Source: Trueperaceae bacterium
GTDB lineage: Bacteria > Deinococcota > Deinococci > Deinococcales > Trueperaceae
Direction of reading: 5' to 3'
Length of the DNA stretch: 64,000 bases
Assembly: GCA_034521815.1 (NCBI GenBank)
Contig: JAXHLW010000013.1
Span: 928,001-992,000 of the forward strand
The translations under genes and the position numbers were made by a program. Each line of letters starts with the position of its first letter. The stretch's first letter is position 1. This document shows positions 41,074 through 43,814 of this stretch, one piece after another. The notes beneath the pieces are model-generated. The model worked only from the letters and a program-made list of their open reading frames with translations, had not been told where the DNA came from and made no database searches.

Positions 41074-41309
41074 GGTGTCTCCTCTTCGAAATGGGGTGTG
41101 AGAGGTGCGCGGAGAACGCCGTCACGAAGGGCGTGAGCAAGGACCCGCAACACCGCGGCACGCCTTGCGACGTGGTCGTCGGCACGGCTCAGGCGCGGCG
41201 CACCTCCGGACGCCACCGCCCACGATGTCGTGAAGCTGGCACATCACCAAGGGCCATTCGTCCGTGGCCCGGCGCGGCTCCGGCGAAGACCGTGCGACTT
41301 ATATGTTGG

Positions 41310-41475
41310 TGGCGGGGACGCACGTGATAGGCCGAGAGCGACTGGGTGCTTGACACCGAGACTGAGCAGGGGTCGTCACGTGAAGGTCCTCCGGGCGGAG
41401 CTCGAACGGTTGCGTGAGGACCCGAGAGGTACCTCGAATCCATAAGACCGAGCGGGACCCGGAGGACACCCCAAG
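41310..41475 (+). ncRNA. IS110 bridge RNA (target- and donor-binding loops); ends approximate
   Basis: LTG GAGCGACT 41336-43, RTG GACTGAG 41360-66, LDG ACGGTTGC 41406-13, RDG ATAAG 41442-46, each guide pair split by a hairpin. Confidence 0.8.
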
Positions 41476-41496
41476 TCTATCTGGAGGTACGTTCAC

Positions 41497-42447
41497 GTGA
41501 ACGACACGCTGTTCATCGGCATCGACGTCAGCAAGAGCACACTCGACATCGCCATCCTCCCCACCGCAGAGGTCTTCGAAGTCCCCAACGACGCCGAGGG
41601 GCACGTCCGCCTCATCGAGCGCCTCGAGACCGAAGGACCGATCGAACGGATCGTCCTGGAGGCCACCGGCGGCTACGAACGCGCCTGCGCGTTCGCGCTG
41701 TTCACCGCCGATCTGCCCGTCGTCGTCGTCAACCCGCGCCAGACCCGCGACTACGCCCGCGCCACTGGCCGTCTGGCGAAGACGGATCGGATCGACGCAA
41801 TCTCCCTCGCGCAGTTCGCGAAAGCCGTGAAACCCGAACTGCGGGACCTGGGCACACCAGAACGGCAGGAGCTCGCAGCCCTCGTCGCCAGGCGCCGGCA
41901 ACTCGTCAGCATGATCGGCAGCGAGCGGCAGCGCCTCCAGGCCGCCACCAGCGACGTCGTACGAGCCGATCTGGATCACAGCCTGGCGTTCCTCAAAGGC
42001 AGCCTCACAGAGCTCGAGAAGGCCCTCCTCGTGGCTGTGAACGACGACCCGGAGTGGCGGGAGCGCATGGAGCTGCTCGAAAGCGTGCCCGGTATCGGGC
42101 GCATCACCGCCCTCACCCTCCTCGCCGAACTGCCCGAACTCGGGACGCTGTCCGCCAAGGAAATCGCCGCGCTCGTCGGGGTCGCACCCATGAACCGTGA
42201 CAGCGGCAAGAATCGCGGCTACCGGCGCACCATCGGTGGTCGCGCTCGCGTCCGCAAAGTCCTGTACATGGCCGCACTCACCGCCGCCCGCTACAACCCC
42301 ACCCTCCATGCGTTCTACGAACGCCTCCGAGCCGCAGGCAAACACGGCAAGGTCGCCCTCACCGCCGTAATGCGCAAACTCCTCGTCACCCTCAACGCCA
42401 TGATCAAGACCAACCAAGCCTGGCAACCACAACCGACCAGCGACTAA
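41497..42447 (+). CDS. IS110 family DEDD recombinase/transposase
   Basis: GIDVSK, LEATGGY, KTDRID, SVPGIG, RDSG, A.MRKL. Confidence 0.96.
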
Positions 42448-42470
42448 CCCTTGACAATCAACACGGTTGC

Positions 42471-43814
42471 TCAGTCGAACGCCGCCGCCGCCGGGACGCG
42501 CGCCGGCGTGTTGCACGGCATCCCCTCCTCGAACAGGGCACGCTCGTCCTCCGGCAGGCGTGCGCGCGCGAGGTCGCGAATGCCGTTCACGCCGATGAAG
42601 AACTCGCGCATCATCACGACCAGCAGGTAGCGCCCCGTCTCGGTCAGCTCCAGCGCCTCCGCGTCGTCGCGCGAGAACGCGCCGGCGGCCTTCAGGAACA
42701 GGTACTCCGCCCACAGCGCACGCTCGACCGGGGCGCCGTTGCGCTTGGCGAACGCGCTCTTGTCCAGTCGGAGCCCGAACAGGTCCATCATCAGCCGGTA
42801 GCGCCGCCGATCGGCGCGACTCAGCGGCATGTGGGCGTCCACGCTGAGACGGCCCTCGTCGATCGCGCCGGCGTAGGCCCGCAGGCTGAACGGGTTCGCG
42901 TACAGCTCGTCGTTCAGGTAGCTGAACGAGCCGCTGCCCACGCCGACGTACTCGTCGTGGTCCACGATGTACTCGTCGATCATCGTCGACGCCTCGCGCG
43001 AGAACGCCCAGGCCGACGTCGGCTTGAACGTGTCCGACAAGGCCTCCGACAACAGCCGGTACTGGCGCTCCTCCTGTTGGTAGTCGACCGTGCCCAGCGC
43101 TCGCTCGAGCGGCTTCTCGACCGACGGCGACACCATCAGCGGGTAGTACGTCACCTGATCCGCGCCGGTCGCCTTGAGCGACTCGATGTCGCGCTTCAGG
43201 ACGTCGTCGGTCAGCGAGGGAAGGTTGAAGATCATGTCGACGTTGAGCGTGGTGAGCCGGCCCGCGGCCAGCTCGACCCCGGCCAGGATCTCCTCCGCCG
43301 TTCCGTACGCGTCCCGGCGCTTCATCTGACGCAGCAGCTCGTCGTCCAGGCTCTGCACCCCGACCGAGAGCCGGTCCACGCGTCCGTCGAGCACGTCGAG
43401 AACCTCGTGGGTCAGGTGGTTCGGGTTCGTCTCGGTCGACACCTCGCCCACGCCGAACAGCTCGCGGGCCAGGTCGATCGTCGCGACGAGCTCCTCCGGG
43501 ATCACGGTCGGCGTGCCGCCCCCGATGTACATCGAGGAGAAGTCGTAGCCCAGGTCGGCCACCATCCGCATCTCCTCACGAAGCGCGTGGAAGTAGCGGG
43601 TCGCCGCGTCCTGCTGGAACGGAAAGCGGTTGAACGAGCAGTACGGGCAGAGCCGATGGCAGAACGGGACGTGCGCGTACAGCAGATAGCCACCGCGATG
43701 GGTCGGCTTCGGGAGATCGCCCGGCTTGTGGGGCTCCAAGCGAAGCTGCTGCGACCGTAGGCCACGAAGGCGGCGGGTGAGGAGTCGCTCCGCGATCATC
43801 GAGCCGAGGTCCAC
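42471..43814 (-). CDS. HemN-like radical SAM protein
   Basis: YAHVPFCHRLCPYCSF, YIGGGTP, RLSVGVQS, YVGVGSGSFS. Confidence 0.9.
   Translation of the reverse strand: MDLGSMIAERLLTRRLRGLRSQQLRLEPHKPGDLPKPTHRGGYLLYAHVPFCHRLCPYCSFNRFPFQQDAATRYFHALREEMRMVADLGYDFSSMYIGGGTPTVIPEELVATIDLARELFGVGEVSTETNPNHLTHEVLDVLDGRVDRLSVGVQSLDDELLRQMKRRDAYGTAEEILAGVELAAGRLTTLNVDMIFNLPSLTDDVLKRDIESLKATGADQVTYYPLMVSPSVEKPLERALGTVDYQQEERQYRLLSEALSDTFKPTSAWAFSREASTMIDEYIVDHDEYVGVGSGSFSYLNDELYANPFSLRAYAGAIDEGRLSVDAHMPLSRADRRRYRLMMDLFGLRLDKSAFAKRNGAPVERALWAEYLFLKAAGAFSRDDAEALELTETGRYLLVVMMREFFIGVNGIRDLARARLPEDERALFEEGMPCNTPARVPAAAAFD

What the first reader, a model, noticed from the sequence alone, without database searches (positions are those of the whole stretch)
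41298..42471. IS110 bridge-recombination element with all four guides readable, plus a circle-junction promoter
Seen: the 197-nt left end has the IS621 bridge-RNA layout. Target loop: GAGCGACT (41336-43) - GGTG/CACC hairpin - GACTGAG (41360-66), closed by a CACGTGA/TCACGTG stem. These guides match the reconstructed target GTGCGA-CT-CAGTC (7/8 left, 7/7 right). Donor loop: ACGGTTGC (41406-13) - hairpin - ATAAG (41442-46), matching the donor junction ACGGTTG-CT-TAT. Joining the right end to the left end creates TTGACA-N17-TATGTT. The target is palindromic (CGACT-C-AGTCG) and contains the stop codon of the radical SAM gene, so insertion leaves that gene intact. Known: IS621 bridge RNA with CT core and junction promoter. 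Inference: an active, programmable recombinase from a probably Deinococcota host.
Basis: partly seen in the sequence, partly recalled or inferred. Interest (0 to 1): 0.8.

Follow-up and report, generated by a model that had tools for sequence, protein, structure and literature searches.

The report
Confirmed IS110 bridge-RNA insertion element

Summary
The element runs 41298-42471, 1174 nt from CT to CT. It encodes a 316-aa IS110 recombinase (Pfam PF01548+PF02371; NCBIfam "IS110 family RNA-guided transposase", 230.5 bits against a cutoff of 140). All five IS621 catalytic residues are conserved.

Contigs from three public metagenome runs join 41297 directly to 42470. That is the empty site GTGCGA-CT-CAGTC, so the boundaries are exact.

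Across 23 aligned left ends from the same phylum:
- The two-loop fold is kept: 94% of cells are paired and 17 of 22 pairs show compensatory change.
- The guides covary with each element's own flanks and ends.
- A TTGAC-17-TAnnnT promoter forms only across the right-end/left-end joint.

Handshake positions covary as well. The window's element is the one exception at the donor-loop position.

Activity is inferred, not shown. There is one copy, no circle junction was seen, and there are no RNA data.

Extras: a 51-nt remnant of the element sits in a tandem duplicate (53908-53960), and Rfam sX15 is the reverse complement of a bridge RNA.

Verdict: a new member of a known kind, of modest interest.

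The parts
41292..41297 (+). Left target half (LT), GTGCGA
   Evidence: It joins directly to CT-CAGTC in the empty-site contigs.
41298..41299 (+). Core dinucleotide CT, left copy
   Evidence: The empty-site joint skips 1172 nt with a 2-nt ambiguity, which is one core copy.
41300..41496 (+). Non-coding left end (197 nt) that encodes the bridge RNA
   Evidence: Rfam sX15 matches the opposite strand at 41306-41472 (48.4 bits, E 2.3e-6).
41302..41307 (+). -10 box TATGTT of the junction promoter
   Evidence: T5, A6 and T10 of the left end are invariant in 23 of 23 aligned left ends. Spacing was checked.
41314..41317 (+). 5' strand (GGGG) of the closing helix P0. It pairs with CCCC at 41469-41472.
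   Evidence: Duplex search across the 23 left ends shows compensatory variants, for example GAGGA/UCCUC and GGGCA/UGCCU. This pairing is inferred.
41321..41382 (+). Target-binding stem-loop, with outer stem CACGTGA/TCACGTG
   Evidence: Helix 1: 11 of 11 pairs have changes on both sides and 94.8% of cells are paired.
41336..41343 (+). Left target guide, GAGCGACT
   Evidence: Matches LT plus core (GTGCGA-CT) at 7 of 8 positions. The same alignment columns match their own left flanks at 90 of 147 positions, and 0 of 20,000 shuffles reached this.
41345..41357 (+). Inner hairpin of the target loop, GGTG-CTTGA-CACC
   Evidence: Helix 2: 3 of 4 pairs are compensatory.
41360..41366 (+). Right target guide, GACTGAG, the reverse complement of CT-CAGTC
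   Evidence: 7 of 7. Homologues match at 91 of 100 positions.
41367..41367 (+). Target-loop handshake base, C. It pairs with the last left-donor base, G42469.
   Evidence: The pairing is kept in 20 of 20 homologues, including the T-A variant in L028.
41386..41467 (+). Donor-binding arm. Outer stem is 41386-95 with 41458-67. Inner stem is GCTCG 41400-04 with CGAGC 41449-53.
   Evidence: helices 3 and 4.
41406..41413 (+). Left donor guide, ACGGTTGC
   Evidence: Identical to the right end ACGGTTG-C. In homologues the 7-mer equals their own right end with 0 mismatches in 19 of 20 and 1 mismatch in 1 of 20.
41442..41446 (+). Right donor guide, ATAAG, the reverse complement of CT-TAT
   Evidence: TAAG goes with CT-TA left ends in 5 of 5, and CAAG with CT-TG left ends in 18 of 18.
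41447..41447 (+). Donor-loop handshake base, A. It does not pair with the last left-target base, A41297.
   Evidence: The pairing is kept in 21 of 22 homologues. The window's element is the only exception.
41497..42447 (+). IS110 recombinase gene: 316 aa, GTG start, GGAGG 8 nt upstream
   Evidence: PF01548 5.1e-23 and PF02371 9.4e-23. NF033542 scores 230.5 bits. D10, E55, D97, D100 and S236-G237 align with IS621 D11, E60, D102, D105 and S241-G242.
42451..42456 (+). -35 box TTGACA in the right end
   Evidence: TTGAC lies at the same distance from the core in 18 of 20 homologues by script. The other 2 were explained on inspection.
42463..42469 (+). Left donor half (LD), ACGGTTG, the last bases of the element
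42470..42471 (+). Core dinucleotide CT, right copy
42472..42476 (+). Right target half (RT), CAGTC
42471..43814 (-). Flanking radical SAM gene (coproporphyrinogen III oxidase family). Its TGA stop overlaps the core T.
   Evidence: NF006385 scores 492.4 bits against a cutoff of 355.
53908..53960 (+). Remnant in the tandem duplicate: CT plus the first ~51 nt of the left end, joined directly to the right flank
   Evidence: 92% identity to query positions 1-53. Sequence read. The same 1121-nt skip appears in one X1 contig.

Best explanation
Window 41298-42471 is a complete IS110-family (IS110-group) insertion sequence. It has inserted at the CT of the site GTGCGA-CT-CAGTC, on the stop codon of a radical SAM gene.

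Shown by sequence and comparison:
- A DEDD/serine recombinase gene.
- A 197-nt left end that folds into two internal-loop arms, which appear closed by a long-range helix (the closing helix is inferred).
- The first loop carries a copy of the left target half plus core, and the complement of the core plus right target half.
- The second loop carries a copy of the element's last 7 bases plus C, and the complement of CT plus the element's first 3 bases.

Inferred from the IS621 mechanism:
1. The element excises as a circle.
2. That joins the right-end TTGACA to the left-end TATGTT, 17 nt apart.
3. This promoter transcribes a bridge RNA of about 160 nt, starting near 41314.
4. The RNA, held by a recombinase tetramer, base-pairs with the circle junction (donor) and with a GAGCGA-CT-CAGTC-like site (target).
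5. Serine 236 then exchanges strands at the CT core.

Population data show the insertion is a precise, derived event, and that a 93%-identical relative sits at another site with the same core-proximal bases. Whether this particular copy still moves is not shown.
For: Protein:
- Pfam PF01548 and PF02371.
- NCBIfam NF033542 'IS110 family RNA-guided transposase', 230.5 bits against a cutoff of 140.
- PDB hits to the ISCro4 transposase (E 5.1e-43) and the IS621 transposase (E 1.7e-42) over residues 5-305. All five catalytic residues align (residue roles from passages of PMC11208158).

Boundaries:
- One contig in each of runs X2, X6 and X7 (three studies) joins 41297 to 42470. Each skips 1172 nt with a 2-nt ambiguity and no letters between.
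- No terminal inverted repeats: 8 of 40 in register.

RNA fold, on 23 left ends at 40-62% protein identity:
- RNAalifold predicts 27 pairs, 21 of them with compensatory change.
- For the 22 pairs of the four loop helices, 94.0% of cells are paired, against 27-48% when partners are slid by 1-3 columns. 17 pairs are compensatory. 0 of 500 shuffles reached the observed values for four of the five measures, and 1 of 500 for further pair types.

Guides:
- Right target guide columns match their own right flank at 91 of 100 positions (20 loci, 14 distinct guides).
- Left target guide columns match their own left flank at 90 of 147 positions (21 loci, 18 distinct guides).
- 0 of 20,000 shuffles reached either value.
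- The left donor guide 7-mer is found followed by CT downstream of the gene in 20 of 23 loci, with 0 mismatches in 19 of those.
- The right donor guide base covaries with left-end base 4 in 23 of 23.
- The closest relative, L017 (62% identity), has guides ACGTCGACT and GGCTGAG, and flanks ACGTCGA-CT and CT-CAGCC.

Handshake: the target-loop base pairs with the last donor base in 20 of 20.

Promoter:
- TTGAC(N)-17-TAnnnT spans the joint in 18 of 20 by script.
- No promoter-like site is found in the integrated state.

Second site: contigs in X6 (1230 nt) and X7 (1184 nt) match 41294-42474 with 78 differences and then run into other sequence. They therefore share GCGA-CT ... CT-CAG with this site.
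Against: - There is only one full copy in the 83.5%-complete assembly.
- 0 of 10 same-genus genomes have a close homologue. The best is E 1.8e-7.
- No right-end-to-left-end circle joint appeared among the contigs laid. Contigs drop rare forms, so this is weak evidence.
- No RNA evidence is available.
- The left target guide differs from the occupied site at one position (A41337 against T41293).
- The donor-loop handshake base A41447 cannot pair with A41297, whereas 21 of 22 homologues pair there.
- The single-sequence fold is not better than shuffles: z -1.15, with 21 of 200 shuffles folding as well.
- No Rfam family reaches its gathering score. The only real hit, sX15, is on the opposite strand at 48.4 bits against 55.
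- The homologues used for covariation are related to each other, so shuffle counts overstate independence. The structure tested was also derived from the same alignment.
Confidence: 0.88

Rival explanations
1. It is the same kind of element, but this copy is a stranded and decaying relic that can no longer transpose efficiently. It is a single copy with no perfect target left in the genome. Point changes in the left target guide and at the donor-loop handshake position weaken strand exchange.
For: - One copy only.
- 0 exact matches to GCGACTCAGTC elsewhere in the genome. There are 32 one-mismatch matches against 44 for the reversed control.
- The donor-loop handshake mismatch is unique among 22 homologues.
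- There is one mismatch between the left target guide and the site.
- The paralogous site already holds a dead 51-nt remnant.
Against: - The ORF is intact with all five catalytic residues.
- All helices and the promoter boxes are intact.
- In IS621, several bases at the equivalent donor-loop position allowed recombination as long as the base did not pair with the donor itself (passage of PMC11208158). A41447 does not pair with G42469.
- Occupied, empty and differently occupied sites coexist in related populations.
Confidence: 0.15
2. The left end is only a 5' leader or regulatory region. The guide-like matches are coincidence or mere terminal repeats, and target choice is made by the protein alone.
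For: The single-sequence fold is not significant, and no curated RNA family matches on the sense strand.
Against: - Guide columns change together with flanks and ends across 20-23 homologues.
- The helices around the guides are kept by compensatory changes.
- The family mechanism has been shown experimentally for IS621 (passages of PMC11208160).
Confidence: 0.02

Closest known systems
IS621 (Escherichia coli) bridge recombinase and bridge RNA (PDB 8wt6; PMC11208160, PMC11208158)
   Same: - RuvC-like DEDD domain plus Tnp domain, with the catalytic serine followed by glycine.
- The bridge RNA lies in the left end, upstream of the gene.
- There is a target loop and a donor loop.
- The left guides copy the top strand including the core. 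The right guides are its complement.
- CT core.
- The promoter is rebuilt across the right-end/left-end joint.
- Handshake covariation is present.
   Different: - The protein is only distantly related (phmmer E 1.7e-42).
- The right target guide covers the core plus 5 bases. The natural-sequence analysis treated IS621's right target guide as four bases (passage).
- Only about 13 nt lie between the -10 box and the target-loop stem, so there is no room for the 5' stem-loop described for the IS621 consensus (passage). Instead a 5' GGGG(AC) pairs with a 3' CCCC/GUCCC and closes both arms (inferred).
- The host is a high-G+C, probably Trueperaceae-like bacterium.
ISCro4 transposase (PDB 9t56)
   Same: It is the best-scoring solved relative (E 5.1e-43, residues 5-305), with the same domain order.
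   Different: It is distant in sequence. Its RNA was not compared here.
Left ends of IS110 elements in the same phylum (L017 at 62% and L033 at 61% protein identity)
   Same: The left ends are nearly the same: the CT-TATAT start, the donor arm, and ATAAG or GTAAG. The right end has TTGACA...AC(A/G)G(C/T)TG-CT.
   Different: - Their target guides differ and their targets differ to match (ACGTCGA-CT-CAGCC in L017).
- Both carry U at the donor-loop handshake position, where the window has A.
Rfam RF02234 sX15 / asX7 of Xanthomonas plasmid pXCV183 (PMC3300014)
   Same: The model aligns end to end (positions 1-159) with 41306-41472. The pXCV183 locus, read on the strand opposite to sX15, has a CT-TATCTGTTCGG start, CCGAACAGTTGC, GTAAG, and then a truncated ORF that begins MNGIGIDVCKAK.
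   Different: The match is on the minus strand and below the gathering score (48.4 against 55). sX15 was described as an sRNA, with asX7 antisense to it and 10 homologues in Stenotrophomonas maltophilia K279a (passages). It was not described as part of an insertion sequence.
IS1111-group elements (guide RNA downstream of the gene)
   Same: Same transposase family.
   Different: Here only 22 nt follow the stop codon, and the structured RNA lies upstream. The layout of the IS1111 group is recalled from memory, not taken from a call.

Membership tests
IS110 family, IS110 group (bridge-RNA elements) | Recombinase with an N-terminal DEDD RuvC-like domain and a C-terminal Tnp domain | tested here: met
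   PF01548 (residues 7-150) and PF02371 (residues 192-275). NF033542 scores 230.5 bits against a cutoff of 140.
IS110 family, IS110 group (bridge-RNA elements) | Catalytic D, E, D, D and Ser(-Gly) are conserved | tested here: met
   D10, E55, D97, D100 and S236-G237 align with IS621 D11, E60, D102, D105 and S241-G242 (alignment; residue roles from passages).
IS110 family, IS110 group (bridge-RNA elements) | Long non-coding left end upstream of the gene, a short right end, and no terminal inverted repeats | tested here: met
   The left end is 197 nt and the right end 22 nt. The ends match at 8 of 40 positions as inverted repeats.
IS110 family, IS110 group (bridge-RNA elements) | Insertion at a core dinucleotide that appears on both sides, with no other duplication | tested here: met
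   CT lies at 41298-99 and 42470-71. Empty-site contigs skip exactly 1172 nt.
IS110 family, IS110 group (bridge-RNA elements) | The left-end RNA has two internal-loop arms conserved by covariation | tested here: met
   Of 22 pairs, 94% of cells are paired and 17 pairs are compensatory. 0 of 500 shuffles reached the observed values for four of the five measures (1 of 500 for further pair types), and slid controls gave 27-48%.
IS110 family, IS110 group (bridge-RNA elements) | Target-loop guides match the target, and donor-loop guides match the element's ends | tested here: met
   Window: 7/8, 7/7, 8/8 and 5/5. Homologues.
IS110 family, IS110 group (bridge-RNA elements) | Handshake bases pair with the non-cognate DNA after strand exchange | tested here: inconclusive
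   The target-loop base C41367 pairs with G42469 (20 of 20 in homologues). The donor-loop base A41447 does not pair with A41297 (21 of 22 homologues pair, and the window is the exception).
IS110 family, IS110 group (bridge-RNA elements) | A sigma-70 promoter is rebuilt across the right-end/left-end joint | tested here: met
   TTGACA-17-TATGTT. It is conserved in 18 of 20 by script, and none is found in the integrated state. This is a sequence-level test only.
IS110 family, IS110 group (bridge-RNA elements) | A circular intermediate and an expressed bridge RNA | not testable with these tools
   Only assembled contigs were available. No circle joint was listed.
IS110 family, IS110 group (bridge-RNA elements) | RNA-guided, reprogrammable recombination | not testable with these tools
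   This needs a recombination assay.
Rfam RF02234 (sX15) | A match at or above the gathering score on the strand of the RNA | tested here: not met
   48.4 bits against a gathering score of 55, and on the strand opposite to the recombinase gene.
IS1111 group | The guide RNA is encoded downstream of the transposase gene | tested here: not met
   Only 22 nt lie between the stop codon and the element's end. The defining feature is recalled from memory.

The most novel reading that the evidence does not exclude
The 51-nt remnant in the tandem duplicate (53908-53960) may be a natural fossil of an aberrant, recombinase-made deletion.

The right breakpoint is exactly the element's right-end core (ACGGTTG-CT|CAGTC). 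The left breakpoint is a CT inside the bridge-RNA gene, and the 5' side of that CT (GGGTG-CT, 41344-50) resembles the left donor half (GGTTG-CT) at 6 of 7 positions.

This would be a donor-arm-only ('half-match') recombination of the kind reported in vitro for IS621 in a 2026 preprint (abstract read). Here it would have removed the recombinase gene and most of the RNA, so the element would have destroyed itself.
Probability: 0.4. Interest if true: 0.45.

Novelty: new member of a known kind. Interest (0 to 1): 0.3.

Why it matters
The find adds a compact (316-aa), high-G+C bridge recombinase, probably from a halophilic Deinococcota lineage. All of its guides, its core, its promoter and its natural empty site are readable, so it could go straight into a recombination assay.

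The set of 23 related left ends also reproduces, in an independent lineage, the covariation on which the bridge-RNA model rests. That includes the handshake positions. The set suggests a bridge-RNA layout closed by a long-range helix.

None of this changes what is known about the family.

Tried and rejected
Searches and tests that gave little:
- The single-sequence fold of 41300-41496 gave z -1.15, which is uninformative in 65-70% G+C DNA.
- Rfam at E up to 10 returned no bridge-RNA family. Only sX15 matched, on the opposite strand, and the other six hits had E above 1.
- The search for related loci returned only distant relatives. Genomes gave one Streptomyces locus at 27%, metagenomes gave one contig at 47%, and viral contigs gave none.
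- Two look-ups of earlier findings returned nothing.
Neither says anything about activity.

Rows dropped:
- Of 31 oriented loci, 27 had the left-end start motif CTTRTANSYT. L016, L032, L035 and L042 did not and were dropped.
- L037, L039, L041 and L043 were left out of alignment A1 because a repeat of about 40 nt interrupts their donor loop. A1 therefore holds 23 of 27.
- In the guide counts, L028 and L034 lacked enough left flank.
- L033, L040 and L044 had no right end found by the script. By eye, L044's right end is TTGACTTTTAACAGAGTAT-CT.

Readings rejected:
- RNAalifold's helix at columns 18-22 with 104-108 was set aside. The same 5' bases pair with a GUCCC just before the ribosome-binding site, and that pairing fits more sequences.
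- I checked whether the target is a repeated (REP-like) sequence in this genome. It is not.
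Full report
**What is there.**
- A CT dinucleotide sits at 41298-99 and again at 42470-71.
- Between the two lie a 197-nt non-coding left end, a 316-codon ORF (41497-42447, GTG start, GGAGG 8 nt upstream), and 22 nt of right end.
- The ends are not inverted repeats (8 of 40 in register).
- The ORF product carries Pfam DEDD_Tnp_IS110 (E 5.1e-23) and Transposase_20 (E 9.4e-23).
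- It passes NCBIfam NF033542, 'IS110 family RNA-guided transposase', at 230.5 bits against a cutoff of 140.
- Its best solved relatives are the ISCro4 transposase (9t56, E 5.1e-43) and the IS621 transposase (8wt6, E 1.7e-42).
- In that alignment D10, E55, D97, D100 and S236-G237 stand opposite IS621 D11, E60, D102, D105 and S241-G242. Passages of PMC11208158 describe those residues as the composite active site.

**Boundaries and target.** I laid the contigs of four public metagenome runs from four studies on 40900-42900.
- One contig in each of X2, X6 and X7 joins 41297 directly to 42470. Each skips 1172 nt with a 2-nt ambiguity and no letters between.
- This is the unoccupied site GTGCGA-CT-CAGTC in related strains, whose flanks differ from the window at a few per cent of positions.
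- The element plus one CT is therefore precisely the inserted unit.
- A contig in X6 (1230 nt) and one in X7 (1184 nt) match 41294-42474 with 78 differences and then continue into unrelated sequence on both sides.
- So a relative about 93% identical sits in another site that shares GCGA-CT on the left and CT-CAG on the right.
- A 181-nt X2 contig also starts to match at 41294.
- X1 holds a more divergent contig with a 1171-nt skip, and one with a 1121-nt skip (see the remnant below).
- No circle joint was listed, but contigs cannot show rare forms.
- The stop codon of the convergent radical SAM gene (42471-43814, minus strand; NF006385 at 492 bits) is the complement of T42471-C-A. It is intact with or without the element.
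- The 11-mer GCGACTCAGTC occurs nowhere else in the 2.63-Mb assembly. There are 0 exact matches and 32 one-mismatch matches, against 44 for the reversed control. This fits the single copy.

**The RNA.** A single-sequence fold shows the two internal-loop arms but is not better than shuffles (z -1.15), so I used relatives.
- A protein search of 364 genomes of the same phylum found matches at E <= 1e-40 in 40 of them, the window's own genome included. The best were 62% and 61% identical.
- Of 31 oriented loci, 27 have a left-end start CTTRTANSYT 176-220 nt before the start codon.
- I aligned 23 of these, leaving out four whose donor loop is interrupted by a repeat.
- RNAalifold gave 27 pairs, 21 of them with compensatory change.
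- For the 22 pairs of the four loop helices, 94.0% of cells pair, against 27-48% when partners are slid by 1-3 columns. 17 pairs change on both sides. 0 of 500 shuffles reached the observed values for four of the five measures, and 1 of 500 for further pair types.
- The structure came from the same alignment and the sequences are related, so these figures are generous. The slid controls are still clear.
- A fifth helix is inferred. The conserved GGGAC just after the -10 box pairs with GUCCC just before the ribosome-binding site. Variants include GAGGA/UCCUC, GGGCA/UGCCU and GGUGGGGC/GCCCCACU.
- In the window this helix is GGGG 41314-17 with CCCC 41469-72. It closes both arms into one junction.
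[quoted passage not shown] Here only about 13 nt separate the -10 box from the target arm, so that 5' stem-loop is missing.

**The guides.** PMC11208160 (passages) states that the left guides pair with the bottom strand, so they read like the top strand including the core. The right guides pair with the top strand. The window fits this:

| Guide | Sequence | Compared with | Match |
|---|---|---|---|
| Left target guide | GAGCGACT | GTGCGA-CT | 7/8 |
| Right target guide | GACTGAG | complement of CT-CAGTC | 7/7 |
| Left donor guide | ACGGTTGC | ACGGTTG-C | 8/8 |
| Right donor guide | ATAAG | complement of CT-TAT | 5/5 |

The same alignment columns in the relatives follow their own flanks:
- The five right-target positions match at 91 of 100 (20 loci, 14 distinct guides, cross-locus mean 1.59 of 5).
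- Seven left-target positions match at 90 of 147 (21 loci, 18 distinct guides, cross-locus mean 2.06 of 7). Several loci are penalised by a one-column register shift.
- 0 of 20,000 shuffles reached either total.
- The left donor 7-mer is found followed by CT downstream of the gene in 20 of 23 loci, with 0 mismatches in 19 of those.
- TAAG goes with left ends that start CT-TA (5 of 5), and CAAG with CT-TG (18 of 18).
- The nearest relative, L017, has guides ACGTCGACT and GGCTGAG, with flanks ACGTCGA-CT and CT-CAGCC.

**Handshake positions.** PMC11208158 (passages) describes bases just 3' of the right guides that pair with the other DNA after strand exchange.
- In this set, the base after the target-loop AG pairs with the last base of the element in 20 of 20. 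One of these is a T-A variant.
- The base after the donor-loop AAG pairs with the last base of the left flank in 21 of 22.
- The one exception is the window's element, A41447 opposite A41297. Its two nearest relatives, whose left flanks also end in A, have U there.
- In IS621, several bases at this position still allowed recombination provided the base did not pair with the donor. A41447 does not pair with G42469.
- I therefore read this as a possible handicap, not as proof of inactivity.

**Promoter.**
- Joining the right end to the left end by program gives TTGACA, 17 nt, TATGTT in the window.
- It gives TTGAC(N)-17-TAnnnT in 18 of 20 relatives. The other two are a truncated search window (L021) and a second TTGACA at the right distance (L030).
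- T5, A6 and T10 of the left end are invariant in all 23. These are the three positions of a -10 hexamer that the scan tool requires or that are most conserved.
- In the integrated state, the hexamer 17 nt upstream is TCCGGC.
- The consensus scan finds no promoter-like site on either strand of 41100-42700.
- This agrees with the abstract of PMC13626964, which reports weak bridge-RNA expression from integrated IS621.

**Host.**
- The nearest named relative of the radical SAM protein is from a Trueperaceae MAG (73% identity).
- The named homologues of the recombinase are from Deinococcales and Trueperaceae MAGs (61-65% identity).
- The runs that hold the sequence are salt-pan, sediment and stromatolite metagenomes.
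- A Deinococcota host is therefore likely.

**Side findings.**
- The window holds a head-to-tail duplication, 33753-46552 against 46612-58044, at about 97% identity.
- In copy 2 the insertion site (53908-53960) keeps CT plus the first ~51 nt of the left end, at 92% identity, and then runs straight into TCAGTCG.
- The missing 1121 nt lie between the CT of GGGTG-CT-TGA (41349-50) and the right-end core. One X1 contig shows the same joint.
- The right breakpoint is exactly where the recombinase cuts, and the left one is a CT preceded by a near-copy of the left donor half. I therefore favour an aberrant recombinase event over simple slippage, at about 40%.
- The abstract of a 2026 preprint reports that donor-arm recognition alone suffices for IS621 excision in vitro.
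- Rfam sX15 matches the opposite strand of the left end end to end.
- On Xanthomonas plasmid pXCV183, the strand opposite to sX15 reads as an IS110 left end followed by a truncated recombinase start.
- The original paper reports an antisense partner, asX7, and ten homologues in Stenotrophomonas maltophilia K279a (passages). sX15 is thus the reverse complement of a bridge RNA.
- A search for 'sX15' with 'Xanthomonas' found three papers. The two that post-date the bridge-RNA discovery's predecessors were seen only as search listings, and nothing in those listings concerns insertion sequences. I did not search further.

**Verdict.** This is a new member of a known kind. Activity and programmability are inferred from family membership and from population polymorphism, and have not been shown. 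Supplementary tables of the IS110 papers, which may already list this or closer orthologues, were not available.

Noticed in passing
window 33753-46552 and 46612-58044: A head-to-tail duplication of about 12.8 kb at about 97% identity. Copy 1 carries the full IS and copy 2 the remnant. Copy 1 has a further indel at 38672-38900 (229 nt, against 15 nt in copy 2). The duplication could be real, or it could be two strains assembled in tandem.
   Followed up: partly
window 53908-53960: A remnant of the IS: CT plus about 51 nt of the left end (4 differences from copy 1), joined directly to the right flank. The 1121-nt deletion runs from the CT at 41349-50 to the right-end core. The same joint appears in one contig of run X1.
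   Followed up: partly
window 53960-55300: In copy 2 the radical SAM gene is read only as a 254-aa C-terminal ORF (53960-54724), against 447 aa in copy 1. It therefore looks frame-shifted near 54725-54790, or the assembly has an indel error there.
   Followed up: no
window 41306-41472 (minus strand); L045 1879-2037: Rfam RF02234 (sX15, Xanthomonas sRNA) is the reverse complement of an IS110 bridge RNA. On pXCV183 the opposite strand carries a left-end start, donor guides and a truncated recombinase start. The antisense partner asX7 would then be the bridge RNA itself.
   Followed up: partly
L037, L039, L041, L043 (donor loop, about 90-130 nt before the start codon): In four related elements of one genus, a repeat of about 40 nt is inserted inside the left donor guide, after ACGGCT. 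The repeat resembles the host repeat that these elements target (cttgacc...cacct-gacgggg-ctgggtcgc).
   Followed up: no
L018, L020, L023, L026, L027, L029, L031, L036 (between stop codon and right end): The distance from the stop codon to the left donor half is 128-298 nt in these elements, against 18 nt in the window. Several carry G+C-rich palindromic inserts there.
   Followed up: no
window 41447: The donor-loop handshake base is A. The 21 other homologues with a readable left flank all have the base complementary to their last left-flank base.
   Followed up: yes
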